NCBI GenBank assembly: GCA_965247235.1
Contig: OZ252004.1
Coordinates: 4,132,883 to 4,196,882 of the forward strand
From: Pyrinomonadaceae bacterium
GTDB taxonomy: Bacteria; Acidobacteriota; Blastocatellia; Pyrinomonadales; Pyrinomonadaceae
DNA length: 64,000 nucleotides
Direction of reading: 5' to 3'
Numbering within the stretch: position 1 is the first letter of the stretch; the number at the start of each line of letters is the position of its first letter. The notes under the pieces are model-generated. The model did not search any database. It saw nothing but the letters and a program-made list of their open reading frames with translations, and had not been told where the DNA came from. This document shows, in pieces, positions 8,053 through 44,853 of this stretch. The translations under genes and the position numbers were made by a program.

Positions 8053-11000
8053 CTAACAAACGCCGATCACATCAATTTCGTTCATTAATCTGTCGGTTTC
8101 GGTCAAAGCGACGATGATTTTCTGATAATGAAAAATGTCGTCGAAACTGAGCGGTCTTTCCTTTCGGTCTTTCAGCCATTTTTGCGCGGGCTGATAACCG
8201 CCGATGAAAAAGTTCCACGCGATTTCAGGAACGCCTTCAAAATACTGCGTGTCGTTAATCCAAACTTTTCCTTTTAACTCCCCTCCTTCAAAAGGAGGGG
8301 CAAGGGGTGGTTGTAACTCAAATCTTATTTTCCCGACAACACTATCGCCGTCAACCGGATACTGCGTGATATAGCGTTCGACCGCCGGACTTTCGAGCAG
8401 ATGAACGCGGCGCAGTTCGCCGCCTAATTCGACTAACTGCCAAAACGCCGCCGCATCTTTCGGGTAAGGAACGCGAGGGAAATCTATCTTCAAAAATTCC
8501 TTATACTTCTCACGATAAGCGGGCGAATGCAAGACGGCGTAGATGTAATCGAGAACATCAATCGGCGCGAATGTTTCTGAACCACCCCCAACCCCTCCTT
8601 CAAAAGGAGGGGAGTTTGAGACTTCTAGCTCCCCTCCTTCAAAAGGAGGGGTTAGGGGTGGTTTCTTATTCCAGCCAAAGTTACTTTTGATAACACCGAG
8701 CATCCATTCCAATTCTTCAAACACCAACTTATTTTCAAAACGCAAAACTTTGATTCCGTAATGTTCTAAAAACAATTTACGTTCATAATCATATTCCCGT
8801 GCGGCATCATTAAAATGAACTTCGCCGTCTAACTCAATCGCCAGTCTTTCTGATGGACAATAAAAATCGAGAATATAATTGCCGACACTGTGTTGCCGTC
8901 TAAACTTTCTGCCTTCAAAGTTTTTGTTCTGCACGATTTTCCAAAAACTCGCTTCGGCAGGCGTTAAATTATTTCTCAAATTTTTCCTGAATGTTTTCAG
9001 ATATGGCAGGTTATTAATTTTATCAATCGTGCGTGTGCCTGACGAATCGAAACCACCCCGCGCTTCGCGCACCCCTCCTTTGGAAGGAGGGGAGTTTTGA
9101 TTTAAAAACTCATCTTCTGTTTTTAGAGGAGACCTTTGCTCCAAAAACTCCCCTCCTGTTTCAGGAGGGGTGGCGCGAAGCGACGGGGTGGTTTCCTTCT
9201 CATTAGTAAATGTTAATTGCAGTCTATCGGCGATTTGCTTGACGATTTCCAAATCAAGATTCGGCGTTCGTATGGAAGAATTAGACGCGAACATCTCTGT
9301 TTGTTTATTTTCTGTCGGATAAAGATAAAGCGGAAAAATATTTGCGTTATCCAAAGTGGAAGAAATGCACTTATCAATCAGATTTTCAACGATAAAAGGA
9401 GATATAAACTTATCACTTCGTGATCGTCGAACTAATGATATTGCGAGATTTGGCTTTATCATATTTTGCATAAATTGACTTCTTGCACGAGCCAACAGAT
9501 TTTCGTCATATACAATCAAACGATTATCAAAAGGACGATAGGATATATTTTGAATCAAACTATAATTCAAGTTTTGTGAGAATTCATCTTTAGAGAATGC
9601 AACATAATCGTTGTCATCTCCCGAAGTAATACCCATATTGTTGACTGATAGAAGTTCGCTTACAAAAAAACCTTTTTCGTAATTTTGCTTTTGACTGAAA
9701 TCTTGTTTCACAAAGTAATAATTCGGCGCAACATTCGGCAATTCTTCATAAAGAATCGTTGCAATAGAGTTTTCGATTAAGAAATTATATTTCGCTTCAC
9801 GCTTGCCATATAAATCGTAATGAAAAACTTTACCTAGTTCATTCACTTTCTTTTTGCCTGTCTTAATGAACAGATTGATTGAAACGCCCTGCATAATGTC
9901 GAAAACATTGACATCAGCCGAACCGTCGGGCGCAACTTCCTTCTTTTTACTATTGCCGTGTAAATCAATCGTATAAATTTTGTCGTAGGTTTTCAGCAGA
10001 TTCCAGCGCATTCCGCGAAAGGTCGGATTATCGAGAAATCCGTGCGGATTGATAAAAGCCAGAATGCCTTCGCCGTTGCGTTCGATGAAATGCTGACCGT
10101 AACGCAGAAACTTTACATAATCGTCGTTAATCCATTTCGGATTGCGTTCTTTCAAGTTCTCTTTGCCGCCGGGTTCTTTCTTATAATCTTCCATCAAATC
10201 CATAATCCATTTGCCTTTGTTCGCGCTTTCACCCGAATAAGGCGGATTGCCGATGACGCACATCACGGGCGTATCGCGTTTGATGTGATTGGCTTCGTTG
10301 GCTTCGTCACTCAGCCACGTCGTCCATAAAGTTCCGGTGTCGGGATGATGTTCTTCGAGGCTGTTGGTCAGATAGATTTGAAGCCTTTTACCACCCCGTC
10401 CTTCGGACACCCCTCCTAAAACAGGAGGGGAGTTTAAAACTTCCGGCTCCCCTCCTTTTGAAGGAGGGGTTAGGGGTGGTCTGAAACCCGTTTCGCTTAA
10501 CAGCAAATCGAGTTTCAGATGCGCCATTGCGTAACTCGCCATCAGCAATTCAAAACCATTGAGACGCGGAATCAAATGATTCTCGACGTAATTGCTCCAA
10601 ATGCCTTGCTGACCGGCAAACTTCGCGTGAATCTGTTTGACGACTTCGGCAAGAAATGTTCCCGTGCCGGTCGCCGGATCGAGAATCTGAACGCGGTGAA
10701 CTTCCTTTTCATATTCCTTGACACCTTCGGCGAAGCGTTTGTCTTTGCTCTGCGTTTTTAACTTGATCGTCGTCTTGGAAGTGTCCGCTAAACCCTGCGG
10801 CAAGTTAAACTCCGTCTTCAAAATGTCGTCAACGGCGCGAACGATAAAATTAACGACGGGTTCGGGCGTATACCAAACACCCCGCGACTTGCGAAGTTTC
10901 GGATCGTATTCGCTCAGGAAAGTTTCGTAGAAATGAATCATCGGATCGCGGGTCTGCGTCGCTTTGCCGAAGTTCTTTAACAGCGCGTCAACGTCCGTCG

Positions 11001-11841
11001 CCCGAAAAATGTCGGCTAACGAATCAACAATCCATTTAATCCGGTCGTCAATCTCCGGTCCGGCGATGTAGCCGAACAGTTTCCGAAGAAACGGATTCGA
11101 TTTCGGAATCAATTCGGCGGCTTCCTGTCGCGTGAATGTGTCCAGACTCTTATCGTGCAGACGCGCCGCAAACATCCCGTAAGCAATCGTCTGCGCGTAA
11201 ACGTCGGCGAACTCCTTTGCTGTAATGTCGTGAATCAAAATCGTTTTGAACGCTTCCATCTGCGCCTTGAGCGTGCTGTTCTCGTCGTTGTCTTCGTCGC
11301 TCATCAAAGACTTTTCAATCACATCGGAAAGTATCCGCGCCTTGCCCGCCATCATTTCCGCGAGTTTCTTACTGCTCGTAATCGTCTGACCGACCCGCGA
11401 AACGAAATCCTTTATCAAGTTGGTAAAAGCAGGGAAGTTGGCGGACAGCGCGACGATGTTGCCGCCGCTGATTTCGCCGATTGCTACGGAAGTCTTAAAT
11501 TGACCGTCGATATAAAGACGAAAGTCGAGATAATCGGTAAAGATAAGATTGTTCAGCGAAGATTTGTAACGGTCGAATTGTTCCTTGTTGCCCGTCTTCT
11601 TCGCGCCGTCCAAATCCTTATCGCCGATGTCTTTCGCTTCGATAAATCCGATTGGAACATCGGCTTTCGTTAATACATAATCCGGCGCACCGCACTTAAT
11701 TCGCTTCGGCTCATTCGTCGCCGCAATGTCCGGCACAAGGCTCTCGATAAGCTGTTTCAAATCGCCTCGATAGGTATGTTCGGTCGCAATCCCGCGTTTA
11801 TATTCACGGGCAATATTGTGTAGGTATTGTTCGATGGTCAT
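8053..11841 (-). CDS. Type IIG (MmeI-like) restriction-modification enzyme: N-terminal PD-ExK nuclease, gamma-class N6-adenine methyltransferase, C-terminal TRD. It carries in-frame palindromic insertions and an embedded DUF559 domain
   Basis: PD..EAK motif (APDYVLTKADVPIGFIEAKD). Motif I ILDPATGTGTFLAE and motif IV VIGNPPYSG. One uninterrupted 1262-aa ORF. Confidence 0.75.
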   Translation of the reverse strand: MTIEQYLHNIAREYKRGIATEHTYRGDLKQLIESLVPDIAATNEPKRIKCGAPDYVLTKADVPIGFIEAKDIGDKDLDGAKKTGNKEQFDRYKSSLNNLIFTDYLDFRLYIDGQFKTSVAIGEISGGNIVALSANFPAFTNLIKDFVSRVGQTITSSKKLAEMMAGKARILSDVIEKSLMSDEDNDENSTLKAQMEAFKTILIHDITAKEFADVYAQTIAYGMFAARLHDKSLDTFTRQEAAELIPKSNPFLRKLFGYIAGPEIDDRIKWIVDSLADIFRATDVDALLKNFGKATQTRDPMIHFYETFLSEYDPKLRKSRGVWYTPEPVVNFIVRAVDDILKTEFNLPQGLADTSKTTIKLKTQSKDKRFAEGVKEYEKEVHRVQILDPATGTGTFLAEVVKQIHAKFAGQQGIWSNYVENHLIPRLNGFELLMASYAMAHLKLDLLLSETGFRPPLTPPSKGGEPEVLNSPPVLGGVSEGRGGKRLQIYLTNSLEEHHPDTGTLWTTWLSDEANEANHIKRDTPVMCVIGNPPYSGESANKGKWIMDLMEDYKKEPGGKENLKERNPKWINDDYVKFLRYGQHFIERNGEGILAFINPHGFLDNPTFRGMRWNLLKTYDKIYTIDLHGNSKKKEVAPDGSADVNVFDIMQGVSINLFIKTGKKKVNELGKVFHYDLYGKREAKYNFLIENSIATILYEELPNVAPNYYFVKQDFSQKQNYEKGFFVSELLSVNNMGITSGDDNDYVAFSKDEFSQNLNYSLIQNISYRPFDNRLIVYDENLLARARSQFMQNMIKPNLAISLVRRSRSDKFISPFIVENLIDKCISSTLDNANIFPLYLYPTENKQTEMFASNSSIRTPNLDLEIVKQIADRLQLTFTNEKETTPSLRATPPETGGEFLEQRSPLKTEDEFLNQNSPPSKGGVREARGGFDSSGTRTIDKINNLPYLKTFRKNLRNNLTPAEASFWKIVQNKNFEGRKFRRQHSVGNYILDFYCPSERLAIELDGEVHFNDAAREYDYERKLFLEHYGIKVLRFENKLVFEELEWMLGVIKSNFGWNKKPPLTPPFEGGELEVSNSPPFEGGVGGGSETFAPIDVLDYIYAVLHSPAYREKYKEFLKIDFPRVPYPKDAAAFWQLVELGGELRRVHLLESPAVERYITQYPVDGDSVVGKIRFELQPPLAPPFEGGELKGKVWINDTQYFEGVPEIAWNFFIGGYQPAQKWLKDRKERPLSFDDIFHYQKIIVALTETDRLMNEIDVIGVC
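8278..8313. mobile_element. Partial hairpin-repeat insertion (family B: CCCCTCC-loop-GGAGGGG plus GGGGTGGT) inside the R-M CDS
   Basis: ctcccctccttcaaaaggaggggcaaggggtggtt, translated in frame as part of ..PPFEGGE... Confidence 0.6.
8581..8664. mobile_element. Family B double-hairpin element (ACCACCCC..2x[CCCCTCC-7nt-GGAGGGG]..GGGGTGGT) inside the R-M CDS, 3' flank of the DUF559 segment
   Basis: accacccccaacccctccttcaaaaggaggggagtttgagacttctagctcccctccttcaaaaggaggggttaggggtggt. Confidence 0.7.
8665..9051 (-). other. DUF559 (Vsr-like endonuclease fold) domain embedded in the R-M ORF, bounded on both sides by family B elements
   Basis: LTPAEASFWKIVQNKNFEGRKFRRQHSVGNYILDFYCPSERLAIELDGEVHFNDAAREYDYERKLFLEHYGIKVLRFENKLV matches the standalone DUF559 family consensus. 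Confidence 0.65.
9052..9194. mobile_element. Family B double-hairpin element with enlarged spacer inside the R-M CDS, 5' flank of the DUF559 segment
   Basis: accaccccgcgcttcgcgcacccctcctttggaaggagggg...ctcccctcctgtttcaggaggggtggcgcgaagcgacggggtggt. Confidence 0.7.
10389..10480. mobile_element. Family B double-hairpin element inside the R-M CDS, within the methyltransferase region
   Basis: accaccccgtccttcggacacccctcctaaaacaggaggggagtttaaaacttccggctcccctccttttgaaggaggggttaggggtggt. It encodes ..PPLTPPSKGGEPEVLNSPPVLGGVSEGRGG... Confidence 0.7.
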
Positions 11842-18728: not shown

Positions 18729-20774
18729 TTAGGCTTTAAGACCCGAATCTTTCTTTTCGCGTTTGATGCCGCCGATCTGGACGAGATTGTCGCCCTTGAT
18801 CTGGTTTTTCTCTAAAACCATCTGGTTGTAGAGTTTTTTCATCATCTGCATTTCTTCGGCGGCGGTTTTCGGTCCCTCCATTTCGGGTTTGTTCGGACGC
18901 GAAAGGTCAACTTGATTCAAGTTGAGATTGTGCGTCGCATCGCCGAGTGTAACTTCTTTGCCGCGAGCGAAAACTTCGTGGCGACCGTGTTCTTTATACC
19001 ACTGTGCAACCGTCGCGTTCTGGTGCATATGTTCGATGATATTTCTCCAGCCGATTCCCGTATTGTATGCACAAAAAGAAATTTCGCCTTCCTGTGTGCC
19101 GTAGGGAATGATGCACATTTCGGTGCGGCGGAAATCATAGTTGAACAAATCCTGAAACCACATTCCCGCGATAAACAGGAAGTTCCAAGGGTCTTGACGA
19201 CGTTTTTCGATGTCTTCAGCCGTGCGCGTCCCGTCAACTTTGCCGTAATCTTTGCCAGAAAGTCCGAATGATTTATCAAACTTCTTCAAGATTCCGCCGA
19301 GCGTCAAACTCGTCGGTGCGCCATACGGATTATAGTTTTTCAAGAGAGCCAAGCCCATCATTATATTTGAAAACCACTTGCCGCGATTGGTGTCGGTGAT
19401 GTGTTTCATATCCGTGACCAACCCCTGAATGTTGAGAAATTGCGGCACGGGAGCCATTTCTTTGGTTTCTTTGTTGACCATCACGGCAGTTCCGACACCG
19501 CAATTCGGGTGACAGCCGCAGGAAACTTGTCCCCAATCGGCGTTTTCGCCGTGAACCACGTCCGCGAAATCGGCAAACGCGCCCATCAATGAAAGCGGAA
19601 ACCAATCGCGCGTCGGTTCGGTGATGCCGACCTGTTTCTGCACGTCCTGCGCGAGATGCGAAAGCGTATAACGCTGCTGCAATCTGCGCTGTTCGGTGAT
19701 ATGTTCGTCGCGCCCGGTGAAACTCACGGGTTGGAAGGCGATGAATGAAATTTTCTTCGGATTTTCGAGCGCGAAACGAATAATCGTGCCGACCTGATCG
19801 TTATTAACGCCGTTGACGAGCGTCGTCACCAGGATAATATCAACGCCGGCTTCGTGCAGATTGTTGATCGCTCTTAATTTAACGTCGAACAAATTGCCGA
19901 TCTGTCTGTGCGAGTTCGCGTCGTTGCCGATTCCGTCAAACTGTAAATAAACGAAACGCAAACCTGCTTCGGCGGCTTCGCGGCAAAATTCTTTTGATTT
20001 AGCAAATTCGATTCCGTTAGTCGCCGCCTGCACCGAGTTGTAACCGACTTTACGCGCATAACGAACTGCGTCTAAAAAGTAAGGTGAAAGCGTCGGTTCG
20101 CCGCCCGAATACTGAACGGACATCTGACGGCGCGGTTTGATCTGAATCGCGTTGTCGAGAATTTCCGAAACGTCTTCCATCGAAAGTTCGTGAACGAATC
20201 CGACTTGGTTCGCGTCCATAAAACACGGGTCGCACATCATATTGCAGCGGTTGGTTAAATCAACCGTCAAGACCGCGCCGCGTCCGTATTTAATGGAAGA
20301 AGTCCCGTGATTGTGCAGCTTTTCGTCGTTGTGCGAATCCATATCGCGTCCCGGAAAAAGGTCTTCGATGTGTTTGAGAAACTTGGAATCAATCGCCATC
20401 AAATCTTCAAAATGTCCGTGATCGGGACAATCTTTAATCATCCAGATTTGACCGTCGCGTTCGATGATCTGCGCTTTGATTTCGCCGACTTTTTCGTTAA
20501 TCAAGGTCGCAACCTCGCGTTTGCCGCTTAAAATATCTTCACGCGCTTCGATCACGCAGTTCGGGCAAAGGCTGTCGGTCATACGCGGAAAACCGAGCGT
20601 CGGCTTGGATTTTTCCCACGATTTCAAAATCGGTTTATCAGCCCATTTCGGGGTAAATGACGGGGACGGTTTGTATTGATTGACCGAACGAATCGCATTA
20701 AATGCGCCTTTGGCGGCAACGGTCAATCCTTTTTCTACATATCTAATGGGTCTCATAAAATTAGTTTTCTCCAA
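18729..20774 (-). CDS. Large radical SAM enzyme (681 aa) with N-terminal zinc-ribbon/rubredoxin-like Cys cluster and C-terminal auxiliary Cys cluster. Possibly a tetraether-lipid-synthase (Tes)-like protein
   Basis: CxxxCxxC motif (CNMMCDPC). N-terminal CPNC...CPDH. C-terminal CGCHPNC. The Tes assignment is inference. Confidence 0.6.
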   Translation of the reverse strand: MEKTNFMRPIRYVEKGLTVAAKGAFNAIRSVNQYKPSPSFTPKWADKPILKSWEKSKPTLGFPRMTDSLCPNCVIEAREDILSGKREVATLINEKVGEIKAQIIERDGQIWMIKDCPDHGHFEDLMAIDSKFLKHIEDLFPGRDMDSHNDEKLHNHGTSSIKYGRGAVLTVDLTNRCNMMCDPCFMDANQVGFVHELSMEDVSEILDNAIQIKPRRQMSVQYSGGEPTLSPYFLDAVRYARKVGYNSVQAATNGIEFAKSKEFCREAAEAGLRFVYLQFDGIGNDANSHRQIGNLFDVKLRAINNLHEAGVDIILVTTLVNGVNNDQVGTIIRFALENPKKISFIAFQPVSFTGRDEHITEQRRLQQRYTLSHLAQDVQKQVGITEPTRDWFPLSLMGAFADFADVVHGENADWGQVSCGCHPNCGVGTAVMVNKETKEMAPVPQFLNIQGLVTDMKHITDTNRGKWFSNIMMGLALLKNYNPYGAPTSLTLGGILKKFDKSFGLSGKDYGKVDGTRTAEDIEKRRQDPWNFLFIAGMWFQDLFNYDFRRTEMCIIPYGTQEGEISFCAYNTGIGWRNIIEHMHQNATVAQWYKEHGRHEVFARGKEVTLGDATHNLNLNQVDLSRPNKPEMEGPKTAAEEMQMMKKLYNQMVLEKNQIKGDNLVQIGGIKREKKDSGLKA

Positions 20775-21481
20775 CTGAAAGTTCAGTTTGCTTTAGTTAT
20801 TGGCTGTAAATTTTTATTATTGCGCGTGTTTTATGTCGGCAGCGAAATATTACTTAAATAAATATAAAGCAATATCTATGCCTTTCGGTTTTACAGATAA
20901 GTTAAATATAAGTTAAAGATTCTGCTGTGTTTGCAGGGAACAGTCAAAAATATTATTTATTAGCTGCGAGTTGTAAAATGACACACTTAAATCGAATTGA
21001 TTATATGTGGGTAAAAAAGCTACACATTTTTTTAATTCTCAGGGTGTTGCTGTTTGCTGAAATTAAAAAATCTTAATCACTATTTAAACGATGGCTTAAA
21101 AATATCCACAGGTGTGGAAATGGCAAGTGGAAATTTTAAGAGAAAAATGTTCTAATTTTTGCAGTCGCATTTGTTTTACTGATTAATAAAGCTATTGTGA
21201 TTTGGTGAATAAAAAGTTCACCATCCGTTCACTTTTAAGCACTATACTTAACCTTTACTTGAAGCCGAAACGTCAAACTGTTGTGAATAGAAGGCTTATT
21301 GGTAAGTAAAAAGGTCTTTACAATGAAAAAATGTTGTGTTAAATTTTCTCTACTTTAAGAAAGGGTTGAAAATAGTCCAATAAATAATTACCTGCTTTAT
21401 TTCTCAGGATATATTTTAATCTTTCGCCCCAGACAAAGACAATTTTTGATTTTAGTTTTTTGTTCTACATTATTTTGAACT

Positions 21482-26874: not shown

Positions 26875-28905
26875 TCAGCCGAAGATCGAAGACAGACTGT
26901 GAACTGCGCCGCCCAACATATTTTTTGCGCCGTCGGCAAGCGTATCGGCGGCGGCGGAAACCGTATTGGAAACATCGCCCGCAAAGTTTGAAACTGCATC
27001 AATTGATTTTGTGACCGCACCGGCGACTACTTTGTCCACGCCGCCCTGACGCATCACCCAATCGGCTGCCATTCCGACTCCGAACCCGACGACCGCGCCG
27101 ACCAATGTTCCTGCGCCGGGAATAATGCTGCCGATTGCCGCGCCTGCCGCCGCGCCCGCCATTCCTGCTCCGACACCGACGACGGCTTCGCCCGTGATCG
27201 TGCCGATTGCCTGTGAACCTGACACCTCTCCGCGATTGTAAGCACCGATTTGATCGTAGGCGGAAAATCCGGCGTTGACGACTCCGCCGATCACTCCTGC
27301 GCCGCCGATTCTGCCGACTGCCGTTCGCGCGACCGAATTAAAAGTCTGCGAAGTAATATTTGACGATTCCGTGCCGGCTAAACGACTGACGAAATTTCGC
27401 GCCGCGCCGTTGGTTGAAAGTCTTTCCAGACCGTTTTCAACTAAACTCGAACGTCCTAAAGTATTCGCAATTTGATTGCCGACGATCTGCTCGCCCGCCG
27501 CGCTGAACGCGCCGACACCGGTTCCGAGAGCCGTTCCCTTGCCGATATTTATTGCCGCGCCGGAATAATCGCCCTGTTTGATCTGGTCGTAAGCCTGAAA
27601 CGTCGAAACCGCCGCCGAAAACGCGCCGCCCATCAACGCGCCGCTGCGGGTTTCGGAAATGAATTGCTGCCTTCCGCTCGTCACCGGAAGTCTCGTCGGC
27701 TGTTCGGCGATTGTCACGGGTGCGCCGGTCGTATGCAAATCCTGCATATCGAAAAACGCCACTTGTCCGCGTTTCGACATTTCCAGAATCGTCGCCGAAC
27801 TGACCGTGTTATCGGTAATAAATTCGCGTGTGCCGACTCTGCCATTGACATTATCCGGGCGCATCGTCGTCCCGTCGCCGGTAAACAGCGGATTAACGCC
27901 CATCGAACGATCCATTTGAGAACGCGCCCGCATTACGTCCTGTTCAGCCGCTGGAAGCGTATCAACAAACCTCTCCGAATTGCTCCACATATCAATTCCC
28001 AAACTTTTAGCTTCATTTAATCTGGCTTCATAATTATAATTCGTGACATCACGCCAGAATGATTCGGGCTTGGTTTGAAATCGTTCAAAGTTATTTTTAT
28101 CTGTTCTTGCCAGATTTGTAATGTTTTTCTCGGTCGGCTGCTGCAATCTGTTTGCCGCCTCTTCGGTGTAAACGATGATTTTGAAGTCTTTCGGGTTGGC
28201 AGAGGCAATATCATCCGCCGTCCAACCAATACGGCTCATCACTTCACGGTAGTCTAGCCGCGAACCCGCCAAATCTTCGACCGGCAGTGACCACGCAATC
28301 GTTTTGCCTTCTCCTTTCGCTGCGTCGTAATAGGCAAGCCGTTGATTCACATCGCTCATCGGTCCGTCGCCGGTTTTAATCATTCGCGCCAGATACTGCG
28401 GTGTTTCGCCGCTTTGCGCCAGATTTCGCACCGCGTTTTGGTCGAGCGTGAATAATCCGCCGTTTCGGGTTGATTCCGAGCGAAGAAAATTATCAGCGTT
28501 TGCAATACTGAAACTCGGTGATTCGCTCGGCTTAACTCCGTATCTGCCGAGAACATTGCGGTATTCGGTCATTGCCTGCTCTGTCAGACGAATAGTGTCA
28601 CCGCCGGCTGCAAAATTTTTGATGCCTTCGTTGATGACGCGGTGATAGGCGATTGAGGCTTCGCGGAATGCCTGTCCGCGAAAAGCAAAATTAGCGTTGG
28701 ACGCGCCCGCCGTCATCGCCGGAAGTAATCTTTCCAGACGGTCGCGCTGCTGATTTCCATAAGTTTGCAGATCGTTACGTCTGCCGATTGGAGAAAAACG
28801 GTCGAGCGGCAACTGTTTCGGTAAAGGCTTAGGTGGCGGCTTCGGCAGTTCAAAAGGTTTGATCCTAAATATATCTTCGTTTCCAATCTTTCTTGGAGGC
28901 GGCAT
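26875..28905 (-). CDS. Large protein (676 aa), Pro-rich N-terminus, no recognisable domain, C-terminal about 230-aa glycine-zipper region (GxxxG/AxxxG runs)
   Basis: ATG at 28905 with AAGGAG 9 nt upstream (the ORF track uses a TTG 18 nt further). Starts 14 nt after the stop of paralog 3. C-terminus GGAGVIGGVVNAGFSAY...GVGAGMAGAAAGAAIGSIIPGAGTLVGAVVGFGVGMAA with an internal AYDQI repeat. Confidence 0.55.
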   Translation of the reverse strand: MPPPRKIGNEDIFRIKPFELPKPPPKPLPKQLPLDRFSPIGRRNDLQTYGNQQRDRLERLLPAMTAGASNANFAFRGQAFREASIAYHRVINEGIKNFAAGGDTIRLTEQAMTEYRNVLGRYGVKPSESPSFSIANADNFLRSESTRNGGLFTLDQNAVRNLAQSGETPQYLARMIKTGDGPMSDVNQRLAYYDAAKGEGKTIAWSLPVEDLAGSRLDYREVMSRIGWTADDIASANPKDFKIIVYTEEAANRLQQPTEKNITNLARTDKNNFERFQTKPESFWRDVTNYNYEARLNEAKSLGIDMWSNSERFVDTLPAAEQDVMRARSQMDRSMGVNPLFTGDGTTMRPDNVNGRVGTREFITDNTVSSATILEMSKRGQVAFFDMQDLHTTGAPVTIAEQPTRLPVTSGRQQFISETRSGALMGGAFSAAVSTFQAYDQIKQGDYSGAAINIGKGTALGTGVGAFSAAGEQIVGNQIANTLGRSSLVENGLERLSTNGAARNFVSRLAGTESSNITSQTFNSVARTAVGRIGGAGVIGGVVNAGFSAYDQIGAYNRGEVSGSQAIGTITGEAVVGVGAGMAGAAAGAAIGSIIPGAGTLVGAVVGFGVGMAADWVMRQGGVDKVVAGAVTKSIDAVSNFAGDVSNTVSAAADTLADGAKNMLGGAVHSLSSIFG

Positions 28906-28919
28906 AATCTTTTTCTCCT

Positions 28920-29501
28920 TCAATTTATAAAATTAGCAAGTTTTTGCTGAATAACGGGACGAATACGGTGCATCTCGTCCATTAATTTAAGTCCTGTTTC
29001 GGGTGTCAAATATAAATCCCAACCGTTTTTCCGAACATCGTCCATCTCCAGAAAACGGGTGTTTGAAATTTGCGTGGTGACAATCGGCTGTCCGACATTG
29101 TTCGGCATCACCGAGTTTTTTCTCACACCTAACTGATCTTTGCCATTAACTATGTCATATTCGTTGAGATCAATCTTTCTCGCCGGTCGTTCGCCGTAAA
29201 TTTCTTCAAGTCTTTGCAATACGCCGTCGAAGTTTCCTAACTCAAACAAAACAGTGCCGCCCCACCAATTGCGGGCGATGTCCCGTTGATAAAGTCTGCG
29301 AACCCGTTCGTCAACTCCTTGAGGAATAATTTTGCCCTGCGGTTTATGAGCAATCGTGCTTTGCACCGAGACGATGAAATCATTGTTCAAAACGCCGAGC
29401 CGATACGAAGTCTGAAATTCTTCACCCTTTTCGATTTCGCTTTGAAACTCGCTCAAAACTTCCATCTGCATTGAATCTATGACTTCGACATTTTCGCTCA
29501 T
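28920..29501 (-). CDS. Hypothetical cytoplasmic protein, tandem paralog 3 of 3 (193 aa)
   Basis: Close paralog of the two upstream genes. Confidence 0.55.
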   Translation of the reverse strand: MSENVEVIDSMQMEVLSEFQSEIEKGEEFQTSYRLGVLNNDFIVSVQSTIAHKPQGKIIPQGVDERVRRLYQRDIARNWWGGTVLFELGNFDGVLQRLEEIYGERPARKIDLNEYDIVNGKDQLGVRKNSVMPNNVGQPIVTTQISNTRFLEMDDVRKNGWDLYLTPETGLKLMDEMHRIRPVIQQKLANFIN

Positions 29502-29554
29502 CTGTTTACATTATCGGCGATTTACGCAAAAAGTTTCCTGATTTTACGATAATT

Positions 29555-30127
29555 TCAAGAAGTTAGCTTTTGTTGAATAACGGGACGAATGCGCTTCATC
29601 TCATCCATCAGTTTCAATCCCGTTTCCGGTGACAGATATAAGTCCCATCCGTTACGTCGGCTGATGTCCATTTCAATTAAACGTGTATTGGATATTTGCG
29701 TCGTCACAATCGGCGCACCGACATTATTCGGCATCACCGAATTTTTCCTTACACCGATTTTATCTTTGCCGTTAATGATGTCGAAATTGTTCAAATCAAT
29801 TTCACGCGCCGGTCGTTCGCCATACATTTCTTCGAGTCTCTGCAATACGCCGTCGAAGTTTTTTAACTCGAACAAAACATCTCCGCCCCACCAATCGCGC
29901 TCGATTAATTTTCTGAAATTTACTTTTCGTTCCTCTTCGTAATTCTCCGGCACAATCTTTCCCTGCGGCTTGAAGGCAATCGTGCTTTGCGAAGTAACAA
30001 TTAAATCGCTGTTTAGAACGCCAAGACGATAGTGTGTCGCAAACCCTTCGTCATCAGTCGTGTCACTTTCAAACTCGCTTAAGATTTCCATTTCTCTGGA
30101 GTCTATCTTTTCAACTTCTTCGTTCAT
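29555..30127 (-). CDS. Hypothetical cytoplasmic protein, tandem paralog 2 of 3 (190 aa)
   Basis: The 53-nt intergenic spacers plus gene 5' ends are near-identical between copies (tttacattatcggcgatttacgcaaaaagtttcctgattttacgataatttcaagaagttagcttttgttgaataacgggacgaatgcgcttcatctc). Confidence 0.55.
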   Translation of the reverse strand: MNEEVEKIDSREMEILSEFESDTTDDEGFATHYRLGVLNSDLIVTSQSTIAFKPQGKIVPENYEEERKVNFRKLIERDWWGGDVLFELKNFDGVLQRLEEMYGERPAREIDLNNFDIINGKDKIGVRKNSVMPNNVGAPIVTTQISNTRLIEMDISRRNGWDLYLSPETGLKLMDEMKRIRPVIQQKLTS

Positions 30128-30180
30128 CTGTTTACATTATCGGCGATTTACGCAAAAAGTTTCCTGATTTTACGATAATT

Positions 30181-30756
30181 TCAAGAAGTTAGCTTTTGTT
30201 GAATAACGGGACGAATGCGCTTCATCTCGTCCATTAGTTTTAATCCGGTTTCCGGCGAAGCGTAAAACCTCCAGCCTCCGTTTTGACTATCATCCAGCTC
30301 AACCAAACGGAAATTGTTAATTTGTGTGGTAACAATCGGTGTGCCAACATTATTGGGCATTACCGAATTCTTGCTGATGGCAATCTGATCTTTGCCGTTG
30401 ACTATATCCAGTTCATTCATATTAATTTCACGCGCCGGTCGTTCGCCATACATTTCTTCTAATCTTTGCAATACGCCGTCGTAATTTTTCAGTTCGAACA
30501 AAACTACGCCACTCCACCAATCGCGCTCGATTATTTTTCTGAATTTTTCTTTTTGTTCCTCTTCAATGTCTGCCGGCACAATTTTCCCCTGCGGCTTAAA
30601 GGCAATCGTAGCCTGCGAAGTAATTATTAAGTCACCATTTAACACGCCAAGACGGTAATGAGTCGCAAATTCCTCTCCCTTTTCAATCTCGCTCTCAAAT
30701 TCGCTCAGGATTTCCATTTCTCTGGAATCTATCTTTTCAACATCTTCATTCATCAC
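30181..30756 (-). CDS. Hypothetical cytoplasmic protein, tandem paralog 1 of 3 (191 aa)
   Basis: Acidic N-terminus. Conserved core shared by all three paralogs (WWGG.VLFELKN(F/Y)DGVLQRLEEMYGERPAREI..N..DI(I/V)NGKD.I..(R/S)KNSVMPNNVG.PIVTTQI). No TM or signal peptide. Confidence 0.55.
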   Translation of the reverse strand: MMNEDVEKIDSREMEILSEFESEIEKGEEFATHYRLGVLNGDLIITSQATIAFKPQGKIVPADIEEEQKEKFRKIIERDWWSGVVLFELKNYDGVLQRLEEMYGERPAREINMNELDIVNGKDQIAISKNSVMPNNVGTPIVTTQINNFRLVELDDSQNGGWRFYASPETGLKLMDEMKRIRPVIQQKLTS

Positions 30757-30902: not shown

Positions 30903-33098
30903 TTATTTGCCGTCGCCGTTCTTGCTGCCGTTGCCGTCGCCGTTTTTGTTCATTTGGTCGCGGAACAAATTCAGTAAAAGCAAACTTCCGATGCCGCCGC
31001 CGCCTTCGCCGCTGCCGCCGCCCGAAGCCATAATGTCGGGCGTGATGCGAACGCCTTTTTCGCCGATAACTTTGAGCGTTTCGACGAGCGCGACACCGTT
31101 TGCGCCGAGTGCGGCGACTTGTTCCTTGTAGGCGACACCTTGCGCTTCGCCCATCAAGCGGACTTTTTCGGCTTCGGATTTGCCGGTTTCCGAGATGTAA
31201 TAGGCTTCGCCGTCGGCTTCGCGTTTGCGCTGTTCCGAGCGTTTCGCGGAGATTTCGACACCGACCGTCGCTTCCATCAAACTTCGCTGATTGTCGGCTT
31301 GCGAACTGGTTTTTTCGAGTTCGATACGCTTGATTTCGGCTTCTCTTTGCGCGTTGAACATTCCCTGTTTCTGCTCGGCGAGAATTTTTTCGGTCTGCGT
31401 TTTCATCAATTCTTCGGGCAGTTTGATGTGACAAATCAAAACATTGACGACATCAACGTGATATTTCAAAAGGTGCATTCTGACTCTCGCTTCGGCGCGT
31501 TCCTGTTCTTCGTGACGATTTTGCAGATAAGCCATCGCCGAACTTTCCGATGCCTGATTTCTGAAAATCGAATCAATCAGCGGGTGCATCACATTCTGCA
31601 CGAGTTTCTCGGTGCTGCCGATTTTCGCCACCATAAACGGCGCGTCTTCGGGTTTGATGCGAAAAACGACGCGCACTTCGAGCTGCATCGTAAAACCGTC
31701 TTTGGAAATGACCGAAAACGGGTCAAACGAATTTGAAGTGTTTTCCGCCGTCCATTCGACCGTCATATTCGTCGTCGGGATAATAAACGGCGTGGTCGCC
31801 AAAGTGTTGACATAATAACGTCCGGGACCGACGACGGTTTCCTGTATGCCGCGAAAACCTTCCGGCACGACGTAGGCTTCGTGCGCTCCGCTGTCCAATC
31901 TTTTGTCCGCCGGATCGCTTTTGAGTTCGGCTTTGATCTGTTCAATCGTCATATCGTCGCCGTCAACTTTATCCAATTTTTCCGCCGCGATATTGACCTG
32001 TTGTTCTTCTTCGCGCTCGACGCGCTCGCGGATTTTCGCCGCCATCGCTCTGCGGATTTCTTCGCCGGGGTCTTTGCCGACGTTGGAAACAATCACCGCG
32101 ACCTCGCCGGGTTTAACTTCTTTCGCCGAATCGGGAATCACTTTGAACAGCAGCGGATTGATGTAATAGGTTCCGGGCAGCAGAATATCTTTCTGCGGTC
32201 CGCGCTGTCCGCCGTTCGAGATAAAAACATTACTGTCCTGAAAATTGTCGTGTCCCGAAATTTGCGTCGCCACATAATCGCGCGGATCGAGCGGCGCACC
32301 GTCTAATGCTTCAACTAATCCGACCGAATTTTCGCTGATGACGGTTGCGTCAAACAGGCGTATGTTAAAAAGTCCGGGTTTGACTTCGCCGGCATCTTCG
32401 AGCGCGACCGAATTGGTGTGAATACGGTAAGTTCCGGGCGATAAAATCTCGACCTGTGCGCCTTTCTGACCGCCGTTGTAAATAAAACTTTCCGCGTCCT
32501 GAAAATTTTTGTGACCCTGAACGGCTTGCCCGAACAGTCGTCCCTGCGCCAATTGCGAGCCGTCGGCAGATGTCACCACGCCGAGTTTTCCGGTCGGAAT
32601 CGTCGCGGCTTTGGCAATCGAAACTCTGAATAAATACGGGTGAATCGCCCATTTTCCCGGCGGCAGAGTTCGCAGTTGAATGCCCTTCACGCCGCCCTGT
32701 TTGATAAAAGCAATCGGGTCTTGAAAATTATTATGCGCGTTCTGAGCGCGGTCGGGCGCGAAAATCGAGCCGGTCTGCATCGGTTCGCCGTCAATCGCGT
32801 CAATCACGCCGAGTTCGTCCGCGCCGATTTCGACGAGCGGCACTTTTTGAATGACGCGCTCAATCGGATAAAGCACGAAATGCAAGCCGGGTTTTAGCAC
32901 GTCCGCCTGAATCCCGATCTCGCCGTCGGTTGCCACGACGCGCCCCTGAGCCATTTTTTTGCCCGCGTAACGACGCTCTTTAATGCCGACCTCGGTTGCC
33001 CCGACATTAACCAGAAAGCGCGTCACGACATACCAGACGATGCCCAAGCCGACTAAGGCTAAAACGCCTAAAACGATTAAACTTGTTGTGTTATCCAT
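30903..33098 (-). CDS. Flotillin-like SPFH/Band-7 protein (YqiK-like) with three tandem about 95-aa N-proximal repeats
   Basis: N-terminal TM (LIVLGVLALVGLGIVWYVV). Triple repeat (H.NFQD..FI..GG..G.Q...L.PG.Y.I.P.LF). Charged EA-rich coiled-coil C-terminus. Start taken at MDNTT (33098), since the upstream in-frame stretch overlaps a palindromic element. Confidence 0.65.
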   Translation of the reverse strand: MDNTTSLIVLGVLALVGLGIVWYVVTRFLVNVGATEVGIKERRYAGKKMAQGRVVATDGEIGIQADVLKPGLHFVLYPIERVIQKVPLVEIGADELGVIDAIDGEPMQTGSIFAPDRAQNAHNNFQDPIAFIKQGGVKGIQLRTLPPGKWAIHPYLFRVSIAKAATIPTGKLGVVTSADGSQLAQGRLFGQAVQGHKNFQDAESFIYNGGQKGAQVEILSPGTYRIHTNSVALEDAGEVKPGLFNIRLFDATVISENSVGLVEALDGAPLDPRDYVATQISGHDNFQDSNVFISNGGQRGPQKDILLPGTYYINPLLFKVIPDSAKEVKPGEVAVIVSNVGKDPGEEIRRAMAAKIRERVEREEEQQVNIAAEKLDKVDGDDMTIEQIKAELKSDPADKRLDSGAHEAYVVPEGFRGIQETVVGPGRYYVNTLATTPFIIPTTNMTVEWTAENTSNSFDPFSVISKDGFTMQLEVRVVFRIKPEDAPFMVAKIGSTEKLVQNVMHPLIDSIFRNQASESSAMAYLQNRHEEQERAEARVRMHLLKYHVDVVNVLICHIKLPEELMKTQTEKILAEQKQGMFNAQREAEIKRIELEKTSSQADNQRSLMEATVGVEISAKRSEQRKREADGEAYYISETGKSEAEKVRLMGEAQGVAYKEQVAALGANGVALVETLKVIGEKGVRITPDIMASGGGSGEGGGGIGSLLLLNLFRDQMNKNGDGNGSKNGDGK

Positions 33099-33112
33099 TT
33101 TAATTTTTCGGA

Positions 33113-33202
33113 AATTGACAGGGATTAATTGGATAAACGGGATAAAAAATAATACGAATTGATTTAAAAATCCCTTCAAATCTTCTTCATCCCTGTCAAT
33201 TA
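33113..33202. repeat. Family A-related small palindrome between the 181-aa gene and the flotillin gene
   Basis: aattgacagggat...atccctgtcaatt. Confidence 0.5.
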
Positions 33203-33207
33203 TTCGT

Positions 33208-33753
33208 TCACTCTGACTCACGGCGCAGGCGTTTGATTTCCTCTTTTAACCAAAAAGCCGCGCCCGAAGTTCTTTCCTGTTGGGGGAGAATTCGGAGATG
33301 GCTGTCCAACAAATCAGCCAAATCTTTCGCCGTTAAAATTCCCGTCTGTTCGTGCAGGCAAACTTGTATCACACTTTTCGCCGTTTGCGAAAATATTACC
33401 GCCGATTCGCTGTCTGCCGCCAATCTTAACAGTTCGACGGTATTTTGCCGGTTGGTTTGCGCCGCCCAAATTTTTTCGTGATCGCCGACGGCATTGATTC
33501 GTGACGTTTTTTCGGCTTGCTCGGCGGCGATTCGATTTTGAAGTTCGGCTTGTCTGTTTTGAATTTCCGTTTCACGCAATTCTTCGTCCGTCGGTTCAAA
33601 CAGCGAACGATACGGCGGCGGCGCGTCAAATTGGGTTTGTTGATCAACGCCGAGCCTTTTTTGTCGGCGTTTGAGAATCACGGAAAAAGCGAAAACTGCC
33701 GCAGAGCCGACGACGATTATCATTGAGAAGAAAAATATAATAAAGAAAAGCAT
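33208..33753 (-). CDS. Membrane protein with N-terminal TM and coiled-coil, first gene of the flotillin locus
   Basis: 181 aa. N-terminal TM helix MLFFIIFFFSMIIVVGSAAVFAFSVIL. Confidence 0.5.
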   Translation of the reverse strand: MLFFIIFFFSMIIVVGSAAVFAFSVILKRRQKRLGVDQQTQFDAPPPYRSLFEPTDEELRETEIQNRQAELQNRIAAEQAEKTSRINAVGDHEKIWAAQTNRQNTVELLRLAADSESAVIFSQTAKSVIQVCLHEQTGILTAKDLADLLDSHLRILPQQERTSGAAFWLKEEIKRLRRESE

Positions 33754-41187: not shown

Positions 41188-41281
41188 CCGGAACGCAGGC
41201 TGTTTGGTAGCAGAATCGTTCAAGCATTCCGTTTTGGAGATGTGCATAATCAACATAGAAATCCATCCCGAAGTATCAAAA

Positions 41282-43950: not shown

Positions 43951-44065
43951 GCGCGAAAGCGCGAGAACGAAGCACAGTTTATGCAAAGTTGAGTTAATTT
44001 AACGCTTCGTTTGCCTTTTGCAAAGGCATTGCAAGCGAGCCGCTTGCGCTCCAGTCGGATAATAA

Positions 44066-44842: not shown

Positions 44843-44853
44843 TTATTCACTTT

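What the first reader, a model, noticed from the sequence alone, without database searches (positions are those of the whole stretch)
18729..20774. 681-aa radical SAM enzyme with N-terminal rubredoxin-like and C-terminal auxiliary Cys clusters, possibly Tes-like
The protein has a canonical CxxxCxxC radical SAM motif (CNMMCDPC) and an N-terminal CPNC..CPDH(GH) metal site. It also has C-terminal Cys clusters (CGCHPNC and others) and is far larger than typical radical SAM enzymes. From memory, this layout (rubredoxin-like site, radical SAM core, auxiliary clusters) resembles the archaeal tetraether lipid synthase Tes, whose bacterial homologs are proposed to make membrane-spanning lipids in Acidobacteria. 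It sits 20 kb from an ether-lipid cassette. I cannot verify the family without a profile search.
Basis: inference. Interest (0 to 1): 0.5.

Follow-up and report, generated by a model that had tools for sequence, protein, structure and literature searches.

The report
Acidobacterial Tes-like lipid-coupling radical SAM enzyme
This gene encodes a bacterial relative of the archaeal enzyme that welds two lipid tails into a membrane-spanning lipid; it lacks one of that enzyme's iron-sulfur clusters and is a strong but unproven candidate for the enzyme that makes iso-diabolic acid, the presumed building block of the brGDGT palaeothermometer lipids, in soil Acidobacteria.

Summary
It is a homolog of archaeal tetraether synthase Tes/GDGT-MAS: PDB 7tol E 9e-63, AF2 model TM 0.88 to 7tom. 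It is not an equivalog (NCBIfam Tes model 327 bits, cutoff 450). It keeps the rubredoxin-like site, the radical SAM cluster, the SAM contacts, and the C-terminal 3Cys+Met cluster and Tyr used in Tes catalysis. It lacks all four ligands of the N-terminal [4Fe-4S] cluster, where an invariant His/Asp-rich motif sits instead. This subtype forms a tight clade at 65-94% identity. At least 597 species genomes, mainly Acidobacteriota plus some Gemmatimonadota MAGs, encode a relative; the 78 orthologs extracted from the best 80 keep every ligand. The window comes from a Pyrinomonadaceae bacterium, a family whose type species makes more than 40% iso-diabolic-acid and ether lipids. The likeliest role is tail-to-tail coupling of iso-C15 chains. 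No bacterial Tes homolog has been tested experimentally. Bacterial Tes homologs were already flagged in 2022; the missing cluster is the new detail. The AGPS ether-lipid cassette 20 kb away is real but is not a conserved linkage.

The parts
18729..20774 (-). Tes-like radical SAM gene. The ORF as listed is 681 aa from a TTG; the probable true CDS is 18729..20756 (675 aa from Met7).
20682..20756 (-). N-terminal amphipathic helix, residues 7-31. Absent from MJ0619. It holds the highest hydrophobic moment in the protein (muH 0.63, net +4). Inferred to be an in-plane membrane anchor.
20577..20657 (-). Invariant Lys/Trp-rich motif, residues 40-66 (F40, P42, W44, K47, P48, K51, S52, K55, K57, P58, L60, G61, P63, R64, T66 conserved 78/78). 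Specific to this subtype; function unknown.
20412..20573 (-). Rubredoxin-like (Zn_ribbon_HMPTM) domain with ligands C70, C73, C116 and H119. A ~22-residue helical insertion lies between the two knuckles (CX2C-X42-CX2H versus X20 in MJ0619).
20277..20354 (-). Segment that occupies the place of the Tes N-terminal [4Fe-4S] domain, residues 141-166. All four cluster ligands are absent. Invariant D144, H148, N149, D150, H154, H156, G157 are present instead. Low pLDDT in the model.
19770..20258 (-). Radical SAM core, Pfam 173-335. It contains CX3CX2C (C177/C181/C184 = 20223..20246), the GGE motif at 224-226, and the 5'-dA contacts F185, Q348, S351 and R355, which extend just beyond the Pfam range.
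19020..19622 (-). C-terminal auxiliary-cluster and lipid-pocket domain, residues ~385-585. It contains C419-G-C421-H422-P-N-C425, M538, C554, Y558 and C568. C425, C554, C568 and M538 align with MJ0619 C338, C455, C470 and Met439. Y558 aligns with Tyr459.
18732..19019 (-). C-terminal extension, residues 586-681. Absent from MJ0619. Conserved to about residue 600, then variable and predicted disordered, with one low-confidence helix at 638-656.
20775..21481 (.). AT-rich 707-bp divergent intergenic region shared with the PGM/PMM gene. It contains only weak sigma-70-like matches and no Rfam family. The gene appears monocistronic.

Best explanation
The gene encodes a member of a distinct, mainly acidobacterial subfamily of the Tes/GDGT-MAS radical SAM family, called 'type A' here.

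Shown by sequence and model:
- It has the Tes fold.
- It keeps the rubredoxin-like Fe site, the SAM-cleaving [4Fe-4S] cluster and the C-terminal 3Cys+Met [4Fe-4S] cluster next to the lipid pockets.
- It has no N-terminal [4Fe-4S] cluster.

Inferred mechanism, by analogy with Tes:
- Reductive cleavage of SAM gives a 5'-deoxyadenosyl radical.
- That radical abstracts H from the terminal (omega) methyl carbon of an iso-C15 chain of a glycerolipid held in the hydrophobic tunnel.
- The lipid radical is parked as a C-S adduct on the C-terminal cluster.
- A second SAM generates a radical on the tail of a second lipid, which attacks the adduct.

Further inferences:
- The AGPS pathway encoded 20 kb away (or an elb cluster elsewhere) would supply the ether bond independently.
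- Electrons probably enter through the rubredoxin-like site.
- The N-terminal amphipathic helix and the Lys/Trp-rich motif probably hold the enzyme on the membrane surface.
- The invariant His/Asp motif may bind a mononuclear metal or simply stabilise the remnant domain.
For: Homology and fold:
- 7tol E 8.8e-63.
- NCBIfam Tes is the best hit at 327 bits.
- The AF2 model has pLDDT 82.8 and pTM 0.85.
- Foldseek gives TM 0.88 to 7tom across all domains, against TMq 0.27 or less for any other radical SAM enzyme.

Catalytic apparatus:
- C425, C554, C568 and M538 align with the [Fe4S4]C ligands, and Y558 with Tyr459.
- F185, Q348, S351 and R355 align with the 5'-dA contacts.
- All are 100% conserved in 78 orthologs, while the non-ligand C264 varies.

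Substrate plausibility:
- GDGT-MAS crystallised with bacterial ester phospholipids in its pockets.
- iso-C15 and phytanyl chains have identical termini.

Phenotype:
- The closest homologs are Pyrinomonadaceae.
- The type species of that family has more than 40% iso-diabolic-acid and ether lipids and is an obligate aerobe.
- iso-DA occurs in SD1, 3, 4 and 6, and type A was found in Blastocatellia, Bryobacterales, Vicinamibacterales and Terriglobia MAGs.
- No Mss homolog exists in Acidobacteria, so another coupling enzyme is needed.
- S. usitatus, a proven brGDGT producer, has a 714-aa homolog, Acid_2410, with type-A-like length and identity.
Against: - No bacterial Tes homolog has been tested experimentally.
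- The protein fails the curated Tes equivalog cutoff and lacks [Fe4S4]N. The role of [Fe4S4]N in Tes is unknown, so the effect of losing it cannot be predicted.
- The gene has no conserved lipid-gene neighbour in 80 loci.
- Type A also occurs in MAGs labelled Gemmatimonadota and Eremiobacterota, where iso-DA has not been reported.
- One survey found Tes homologs in only 3 of 14 iso-DA-producing acidobacteria and proposed an alternative pathway. Its cutoffs (E <=1e-50 and >=30% identity) straddle this subtype, which is 29.4-34.2% identical to MJ0619.
- I could not confirm the presence of type A in any lipid-typed isolate genome directly.
Confidence: 0.6

Rival explanations
1. It is a Tes-fold radical SAM enzyme that acts on lipid tails or another hydrophobic substrate with a different outcome. 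Examples are intrachain or interchain cross-linking, cyclisation, or modification of a non-iso-C15 substrate. The real iso-DA synthase of Acidobacteria would then be another, unidentified enzyme.
For: The architecture differs from characterised Tes: no [Fe4S4]N, new invariant motifs and two terminal extensions. It scores below the equivalog cutoff. It occurs in phyla with no reported iso-DA. Tes paralogs can differ in product: MA_1114 gave only trace macrocyclic archaeol. Sahonero-Canavesi et al. proposed an alternative pathway in Acidobacteria.
Against: The whole C-terminal lipid-pocket and cluster apparatus used for tail-to-tail coupling is conserved at 100%. The family's distribution fits the iso-DA-producing subdivisions. 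No other candidate is known, and Mss is absent from Acidobacteria.
Confidence: 0.22
2. It is a true tetraether synthase. It would couple iso-C15 diether lipids into brGTGT/brGDGT, as canonical Tes does with archaeol, rather than making ester- or monoether-bound iso-diabolic acid.
For: It is a Tes homolog. The diether-condensation pathway has been proposed for S. usitatus, which carries a type-A-like gene. An ether-lipid (AGPS) cassette lies in the same window.
Against: brGDGTs were not detected in most SD4 cultures, although iso-DA glycerol ethers are abundant. S. usitatus also has a canonical-length, 40%-identical homolog, Acid_5929, which is the more obvious tetraether synthase. AGPS makes only sn-1 monoethers (established knowledge of the pathway).
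Confidence: 0.1
3. It is what many database entries call it: 7,8-dihydro-6-hydroxymethylpterin dimethyltransferase, a radical SAM methylase of methanopterin biosynthesis. Alternatively it is a SPASM-type cofactor or RiPP maturase.
For: JGI names for many homologs. The Pfam domain name Zn_ribbon_HMPTM. Weak NCBIfam hits to NirJ, MoaA, PqqE and SPASM maturases over the radical SAM core only.
Against: The HMPTM name derives from MJ0619, whose pterin methylase activity could not be reproduced. Its active site is a hydrophobic lipid tunnel, and it is GDGT-MAS. Maturase families score 30-74 bits against cutoffs of 265-650 and cover only residues ~165-380. Fold matches to MoaA, SkfB and SuiB have TMq 0.27 or less. 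There is no precursor peptide or cofactor operon nearby.
Confidence: 0.03

Closest known systems
Tes / GDGT-MAS (M. jannaschii MJ0619, PDB 7TOL/7TOM; M. acetivorans MA_1486; M. aeolicus Maeo_0574)
   Same: Same overall four-region fold (TM 0.88). It shares the rubredoxin-like 3Cys+His site, the radical SAM CX3CX2C cluster and 5'-dA contacts, the C-terminal 3Cys+Met cluster, the conserved Tyr and the lipid-pocket domain.
   Different: About 31% identity. All four [Fe4S4]N ligands are missing and replaced by an invariant His/Asp motif. It has a 22-residue insertion in the rubredoxin domain, a ~65-residue N-terminal extension (amphipathic helix plus K/W motif) and a ~95-residue C-terminal extension. 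It scores 327 bits against the 450 equivalog cutoff. The host is an aerobic bacterium with ester and monoether iso-branched lipids, not an archaeon with phytanyl diethers.
Previously flagged acidobacterial 'Tes homologs' (S. usitatus Acid_2410/Q025C7, 714 aa; E. aggregans homolog; Zeng 2022, Halamka 2022)
   Same: Same phylum. Same low identity to archaeal Tes (30-32%, E ~1e-61) and, for Acid_2410, the same ~700-aa length as the Bryobacterales type-A orthologs. Same hypothesised role in membrane-spanning lipid synthesis.
   Different: I could not obtain those sequences, so subtype identity is inferred from length and scores only. The papers treat all homologs as one group and do not mention the missing N-terminal cluster.
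Canonical-architecture bacterial Tes homologs (for example S. usitatus Acid_5929, 545 aa, 40% to MA_1486; representatives P0158, P0171, P0219 Phycisphaerae)
   Same: Same family, and bacterial.
   Different: They keep the CPxxCGxC-H N-terminal cluster and are 500-550 aa. All but one of those scored pass the NCBIfam Tes cutoff (474-593 bits; P0185 scores 432). They fall in the clade with MJ0619, not with this protein.
Degenerate relatives within the same N-cluster-less clade (T. roseus WP_014786616 'type B'; P0140/P0174 'type C')
   Same: They share the rubredoxin insertion, the loss of [Fe4S4]N and 38-41% identity.
   Different: Type B has also lost the C-terminal cluster ligands and the Tyr, and it sits in a conjugative or integrative element. 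Type C has a different CxxC...C arrangement.
Mss (membrane-spanning lipid synthase of Thermotoga / Thermoanaerobacter)
   Same: A radical SAM enzyme experimentally shown to couple fatty-acid tails into diabolic acids. It is the functional analogue of what is proposed here.
   Different: It is not a close Tes homolog: Tes searches find nothing in Thermotoga. It occurs only in anaerobes, and no Mss homologs were found in Acidobacteria. I did not compare sequences directly.

Membership tests
Tes / GDGT-MAS (NCBIfam NF045702; PDB 7TOL) | Radical SAM CX3CX2C cluster with SAM/5'-dA binding residues | tested here: met
   C177/C181/C184; GGE 224-226; F185, Q348, S351 and R355 align with MJ F106, Q268, S271 and R275. 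All are 78/78 conserved.
Tes / GDGT-MAS (NCBIfam NF045702; PDB 7TOL) | Rubredoxin-like mononuclear Fe site, CX2C...CX2H | tested here: met
   C70, C73, C116 and H119 are invariant. Pfam Zn_ribbon_HMPTM E 3.3e-13. The spacing is X42 instead of X20.
Tes / GDGT-MAS (NCBIfam NF045702; PDB 7TOL) | N-terminal auxiliary [4Fe-4S] cluster (MJ C73, C77, C80 + His) | tested here: not met
   The aligned columns are gap/H/S/K. There is no CX3CX2C upstream of the radical SAM motif in the query or in any of the type-A orthologs checked. Every canonical-clade representative except P0227 has CPxxCGxC-H.
Tes / GDGT-MAS (NCBIfam NF045702; PDB 7TOL) | C-terminal auxiliary [4Fe-4S] cluster (3 Cys + labile Met439), the site of the C-S lipid intermediate | tested here: met
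   C425, C554, C568 and M538 align with MJ C338, C455, C470 and M439, and are 78/78 conserved. This is sequence-level only; cluster binding was not measured.
Tes / GDGT-MAS (NCBIfam NF045702; PDB 7TOL) | Active-site Tyr459, strictly conserved in ~1000 archaeal homologs | tested here: met
   Y558 is 78/78 conserved. Note that Tyr variants of Tes stay active.
Tes / GDGT-MAS (NCBIfam NF045702; PDB 7TOL) | Whole-protein fold including the two-pocket lipid-binding C-terminal domain | tested here: met
   Foldseek 7tom E 7.5e-36, TM 0.88 normalised to the target, 546 aligned columns.
Tes / GDGT-MAS (NCBIfam NF045702; PDB 7TOL) | Score at or above the curated equivalog cutoff (450 bits) | tested here: not met
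   Query 327 bits; other type A 299-311. Canonical representatives score 474-593.
Tes / GDGT-MAS (NCBIfam NF045702; PDB 7TOL) | Catalyses tail-to-tail Csp3-Csp3 coupling of membrane lipid chains | not testable with these tools
   Needs expression or knockout plus lipid analysis. None is published for any bacterial homolog.
Mss (bacterial membrane-spanning lipid synthase) | Sequence homology to T. maritima / T. ethanolicus Mss | not tested
   No Mss sequence or profile was available in the tools. The literature reports no Mss homologs in Acidobacteria and no Tes homologs in Thermotoga.
GrsA/GrsB (GDGT ring synthases, B12-binding radical SAM) | N-terminal cobalamin-binding Rossmann domain | tested here: not met
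   There is no B12-binding Pfam domain; only Radical_SAM, Zn_ribbon_HMPTM and a sub-threshold Fer4_12 hit (16.7 bits, cutoff 22) were found. The N-terminus is a helix plus a zinc ribbon in the model.
SPASM/twitch RiPP and cofactor maturases | SPASM 7-Cys C-terminal domain; family HMM above cutoff | tested here: not met
   No SPASM Pfam hit. NCBIfam maturase models score 29-74 bits against cutoffs of 265-650, over the radical SAM core only. Fold matches have TMq 0.27 or less.
TrsS radical SAM (seleno)protein (NCBIfam NF045646) | Score at or above the curated cutoff (490 bits) | tested here: not met
   212 bits, covering only residues 97-383.

The most novel reading that the evidence does not exclude
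Type A is the long-sought iso-diabolic-acid synthase of aerobic soil Acidobacteria, and so the first committed enzyme towards brGDGT palaeothermometer lipids. On this reading it is an oxygen-adapted derivative of Tes in which the surface-exposed N-terminal [4Fe-4S] cluster has been replaced by an invariant 3-His/2-Asp site and membrane-anchoring extensions have been added. Its near-universal presence in the phylum was under-counted because earlier surveys used identity cutoffs (>=30% to archaeal Tes) that fall right on this subfamily.
Probability: 0.4. Interest if true: 0.7.

Novelty: new variant of a known kind. Interest (0 to 1): 0.47.

Why it matters
brGDGTs are among the most widely used terrestrial palaeotemperature and pH proxies. 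The enzyme that joins two iso-C15 chains in their presumed main producers, aerobic Acidobacteria, is still unidentified. Mss is absent from the phylum, and bacterial Tes homologs remain untested.

This analysis narrows the candidates to one sharply defined, highly conserved subfamily. It has a simple sequence signature: CGCHP[ND]CG, HNDxxLHxHG, and no CPxxCGxC upstream of the radical SAM motif. It separates that subfamily from canonical Tes-like and degenerate paralogs, and it explains why earlier surveys may have missed it.

If confirmed, the subfamily would give a gene marker for iso-DA and brGDGT producers in soil metagenomes. It would also be a natural experiment on which Tes metallocofactors are dispensable for Csp3-Csp3 coupling.

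Tried and rejected
- **Gene neighbourhood.** I called ORFs in 80 related loci plus the window and clustered them. No neighbour is shared beyond lineage-level synteny: PGM/FtsB in the closest Pyrinomonadaceae, SurE/PCMT/DedA in others, a QueG-like gene in Terriglobia. No ether-cassette gene lies within +/-6 kb. Context therefore gives no functional partner.
- **RNA elements.** An Rfam scan of the whole window found nothing. Promoter and terminator scans gave only weak consensus matches.
- **Named, lipid-typed isolates carrying type A.** Two large protein searches returned only MAG proteins in their top 120. The genome scan kept only the best 80 of at least 597 hits, all MAGs. The supplementary table S21 of Sahonero-Canavesi et al. 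is not held. The Zeng et al. supplements contain no matching species names. No paper mentions Acid_2410 or Acid_5929 by locus tag.
- **AFDB fold search.** Intended to recover UniProt-named relatives; the library was unavailable.
- **Ligand geometry.** Model coordinates are not exposed to scripts, so cluster-ligand distances could not be measured.
- **T. roseus as a counter-example.** The T. roseus homolog lacks the C-terminal cluster, in an organism from an iso-DA-producing subdivision. It lies in a conjugative or integrative element and is an accessory paralog, so it neither supports nor refutes the hypothesis.
- **P0136.** Discarded as a frameshifted metagenomic artefact.
Full report
**Observation.** The ORF at 18729..20774 (minus strand, 681 aa) exists. 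In all there are 12 Cys. Pfam finds a Radical_SAM domain (173-335, E 1.9e-19) and the HMPTM/Tes N-terminal zinc ribbon (63-127, E 3.3e-13). Met7 is invariant in alignments of homologs, which are 673-680 aa long, and its ATG is preceded by a GGAG. The real start is therefore probably 20756. The gene is monocistronic. It is convergent with a 286-aa gene of unknown function. It is divergent, across a 707-bp AT-rich spacer, from a phosphoglucomutase-family gene. No Rfam family lies in the window.

**Family.** The best NCBIfam hit is the Tes equivalog model NF045702, at 327 bits (E 1.5e-97) over nearly the full profile. The curated cutoff is 450. The next model, TrsS, scores 212, and cofactor and RiPP maturase models reach at most 74 bits over the radical SAM core only. 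The best solved structure by sequence is GDGT-MAS from M. jannaschii (7tol, E 8.8e-63, residues 98-573). An AlphaFold2 model built on a 31-sequence alignment has mean pLDDT 82.8 and pTM 0.85. It matches 7tom/7tol with E 7.5e-36 and TM 0.88 (target-normalised) over about 546 columns. All other hits (MoaA, SkfB, viperin, HydE, SuiB) cover only the core, with TMq 0.27 or less. The protein is therefore a genuine Tes homolog with the Tes fold.

**Metal sites.** Lloyd et al. 2022 define four metallocofactors in GDGT-MAS:
- a rubredoxin-like Fe bound by C9, C12, C33 and H36;
- [Fe4S4]N bound by C73, C77, C80 and a His;
- the radical SAM cluster;
- [Fe4S4]C bound by three Cys and the labile Met439, which is where the lipid radical is trapped as a C-S adduct.

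Column-by-column mapping gives the following for the window protein:
- It keeps the rubredoxin ligands C70, C73, C116 and H119.
- It keeps the radical SAM cluster C177, C181 and C184.
- It keeps four of the five named 5'-dA contacts: F185, Q348, S351 and R355.
- It keeps C425, C554, C568 and M538, equivalent to MJ0619 C338, C455, C470 and M439.
- It keeps Y558, equivalent to Tyr459.
- All four [Fe4S4]N ligands are gone. 'GCPYDCGLCPNH' aligns with 'EKLHNHGTSSIK'.

The segment that replaces the cluster has a similar length (57 versus 61 residues between the rubredoxin His and the first radical SAM Cys). It has low model confidence. It is nevertheless strongly conserved: D144, H148, N149, D150, H154, H156 and G157 are invariant in 78 orthologs. 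Three further features are absent from MJ0619:
- a confident N-terminal amphipathic helix (7-31; the highest hydrophobic moment in the protein, net +4), with no transmembrane helix anywhere;
- an invariant Lys/Trp-rich motif at 40-66;
- a 22-residue helical insertion between the rubredoxin knuckles, and a C-terminal extension of about 95 residues.

**Subfamily structure.** An exhaustive search of 1.84 billion representatives found 593 proteins with E <=1e-30. All full-length representatives at least 38% identical to the query lack the upstream CPxxCGxC. All but one of those at 37% or less have it; the exception, P0227, comes from Parcubacteria. In a neighbour-joining tree the sequences without the N-terminal cluster form one clade, apart from the canonical clade that holds MJ0619. 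The NCBIfam Tes model separates the groups:

| Group | Bits (cutoff 450) |
|---|---|
| Canonical representatives | 474-593 (one at 432) |
| P0126 | 414 |
| Type A (this protein and orthologs) | 299-327 |
| Terriglobus roseus type | 239 |
| P0140 type | 251 |

Within the clade lacking the N-terminal cluster, only the query's group ('type A') and the deeper-branching P0126 keep the C-terminal cluster and the Tyr. The T. roseus protein (WP_014786616) has lost both. It lies between a TrwC relaxase, a TraG/TrwB coupling protein and two integrases, which marks it as an accessory paralog on a mobile element.

**Distribution.** The closest proteins (87-94% identity) are labelled Pyrinomonadaceae, Blastocatellia or Acidobacteriota. 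The window therefore comes from a Pyrinomonadaceae bacterium (Blastocatellia, subdivision 4). A scan of one genome per GTDB species found at least 597 genomes with a relative. The best 80 (65-91% identity) include Pyrinomonadaceae, other Blastocatellia, Terriglobia (Bryobacterales, Solibacteraceae, 'Acidiferrales'), Vicinamibacterales and groups 2, 5 and 18. They also include about seven Gemmatimonadota MAGs and a few Eremiobacterota MAGs. In the 78 orthologs extracted from these loci, every proposed ligand is 100% conserved: eleven Cys, H119, H422 and M538, along with Y558. The non-ligand C264 varies. Such slow evolution across classes indicates a core function under strong constraint. No neighbouring gene is conserved beyond lineage-level synteny, and no ether-lipid gene lies within +/-6 kb in any locus.

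**Link to lipids (literature).**
- Zeng et al. 2022 reported 456 bacterial Tes homologs, including acidobacterial ones, and proposed a role in brGDGT synthesis. They noted that iso-C15 and phytanyl termini are identical.
- GDGT-MAS crystallised with E. coli ester phospholipids in both pockets.
- iso-Diabolic acid occurs in subdivisions 1, 3, 4 and 6. SD4 cultures have abundant iso-DA glycerol ethers but no detectable brGDGTs.
- Pyrinomonas methylaliphatogenes, the type species of the family, is an obligate aerobe. More than 40% of its membrane lipids are iso-DA and ether lipids.
- Mss, the proven bacterial coupling enzyme, has no homolog in Acidobacteria.
- S. usitatus, a proven brGDGT producer, has two homologs. 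Acid_5929 is 545 aa and 40% identical to MA_1486. Acid_2410 is 714 aa, 30.1% identical, E 4e-62; its length and identity match the Bryobacterales type-A orthologs, which are 694-721 aa.
- One survey found Tes homologs in only 3 of 14 iso-DA-producing acidobacteria. It required E <=1e-50 and at least 30% identity. Type A is 29.4-34.2% identical to MJ0619, with a median of 31.4%. The low count may therefore be a threshold effect; this is my inference.
- No bacterial Tes homolog had been tested experimentally in the literature searchable up to August 2026.

**Mechanism (inferred).** By analogy with Tes, the radical SAM cluster generates 5'-dA radical, which abstracts H from the omega-carbon of an iso-C15 chain. 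The radical is held on a sulfide of the C-terminal cluster. A second SAM turnover on a second lipid completes the C-C bond and yields bound iso-diabolic acid. The AGPS pathway encoded at 40375-45432 could supply the sn-1 ether bonds seen in SD4 iso-DA monoethers. That cassette comprises an AraC regulator, AGPS (E 5e-167 to 4bby), an acyltransferase and an SDR. The two loci are separated by about 15 unrelated genes, however, and the linkage is not conserved. Loss of the surface-exposed [Fe4S4]N, whose role in Tes is unknown, may be an adaptation to aerobic life. The invariant His/Asp motif may bind a mononuclear metal. Both of these points are speculation.

**Verdict.** The gene belongs to a group already flagged in the literature as candidate bacterial membrane-spanning lipid synthases, so it is not a new kind of system. 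What is new here is the delineation of a sharply conserved subfamily that lacks the N-terminal cluster, its signature motifs, and its separation from canonical and degenerate paralogs. I rate it a new variant of a known kind. Interest is moderate, because it makes a long-standing open question, the acidobacterial iso-DA/brGDGT coupling enzyme, directly testable with a defined candidate.

Noticed in passing
window 40375-45432 (+): A complete eukaryote/myxobacterial-type ether-lipid cassette: an AraC regulator, alkyl-DHAP synthase (41204-43054, E 5e-167 to mammalian AGPS 4bby), a PlsC-type acyltransferase (possibly a DHAP acyltransferase), an SDR (possibly an acyl/alkyl-DHAP reductase) and a 192-aa protein with no family. 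The literature attributes SD4 ether lipids to the elb cluster, so an AGPS route in a Pyrinomonadaceae genome deserves a look.
   Followed up: partly
window 28920-30756 (-), with flanks 26875-28923 and 30903-33753: Three tandem paralogous ORFs of about 190 aa, 67-78% identical to one another, with no Pfam family. They sit between a 682-aa unknown protein and a 772-aa SPFH/Band-7 protein followed by a 181-aa unknown. This may be an uncharacterised membrane-associated module.
   Followed up: partly
L082 8001-9875 (Terriglobus roseus DSM 18391 homolog P0132): The T. roseus Tes-like paralog has lost the C-terminal cluster ligands and the Tyr. It lies inside a conjugative or integrative element (TrwC relaxase, TraG/TrwB coupling protein, two integrases), so a degenerate Tes-like gene is travelling on a mobile element.
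   Followed up: partly
window 20277-20354 (-), residues 141-166 of the Tes-like protein: An invariant motif PGRDxxxHNDxxLHxHGSS (D144, H148, D150, H154, H156 conserved 78/78) sits where canonical Tes binds its N-terminal [4Fe-4S] cluster. It may be a replacement mononuclear metal site.
   Followed up: partly
loci L039, L045, L047, L049, L051, L054 (Gemmatimonadota MAGs); L061, L065 (Eremiobacterota MAGs): Type-A orthologs at 68-72% identity occur in MAGs assigned to phyla not known to make iso-diabolic acid. Possible explanations are horizontal transfer, mis-binning, or unrecognised membrane-spanning lipids in those phyla.
   Followed up: no
window 8053-11841 (-): A 1262-aa Type ISP restriction-modification enzyme (N6_Mtase, Eco57I and Type_ISP_C domains) with an embedded DUF559/REase_MTES_1575 endonuclease-like domain.
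   Followed up: no
window 37236-38216 (+): A deoxyhypusine-synthase-family protein (Pfam DS, E 6e-40) in a bacterial genome. Bacterial homologs of this family are usually homospermidine-synthase-like.
   Followed up: no
proteins P0007, P0010 and others: Many database entries for this family still carry the name '7,8-dihydro-6-hydroxymethylpterin dimethyltransferase'. It is inherited from the superseded annotation of MJ0619. One JGI entry (P0347) is already called 'tetraether lipid synthase'.
   Followed up: yes
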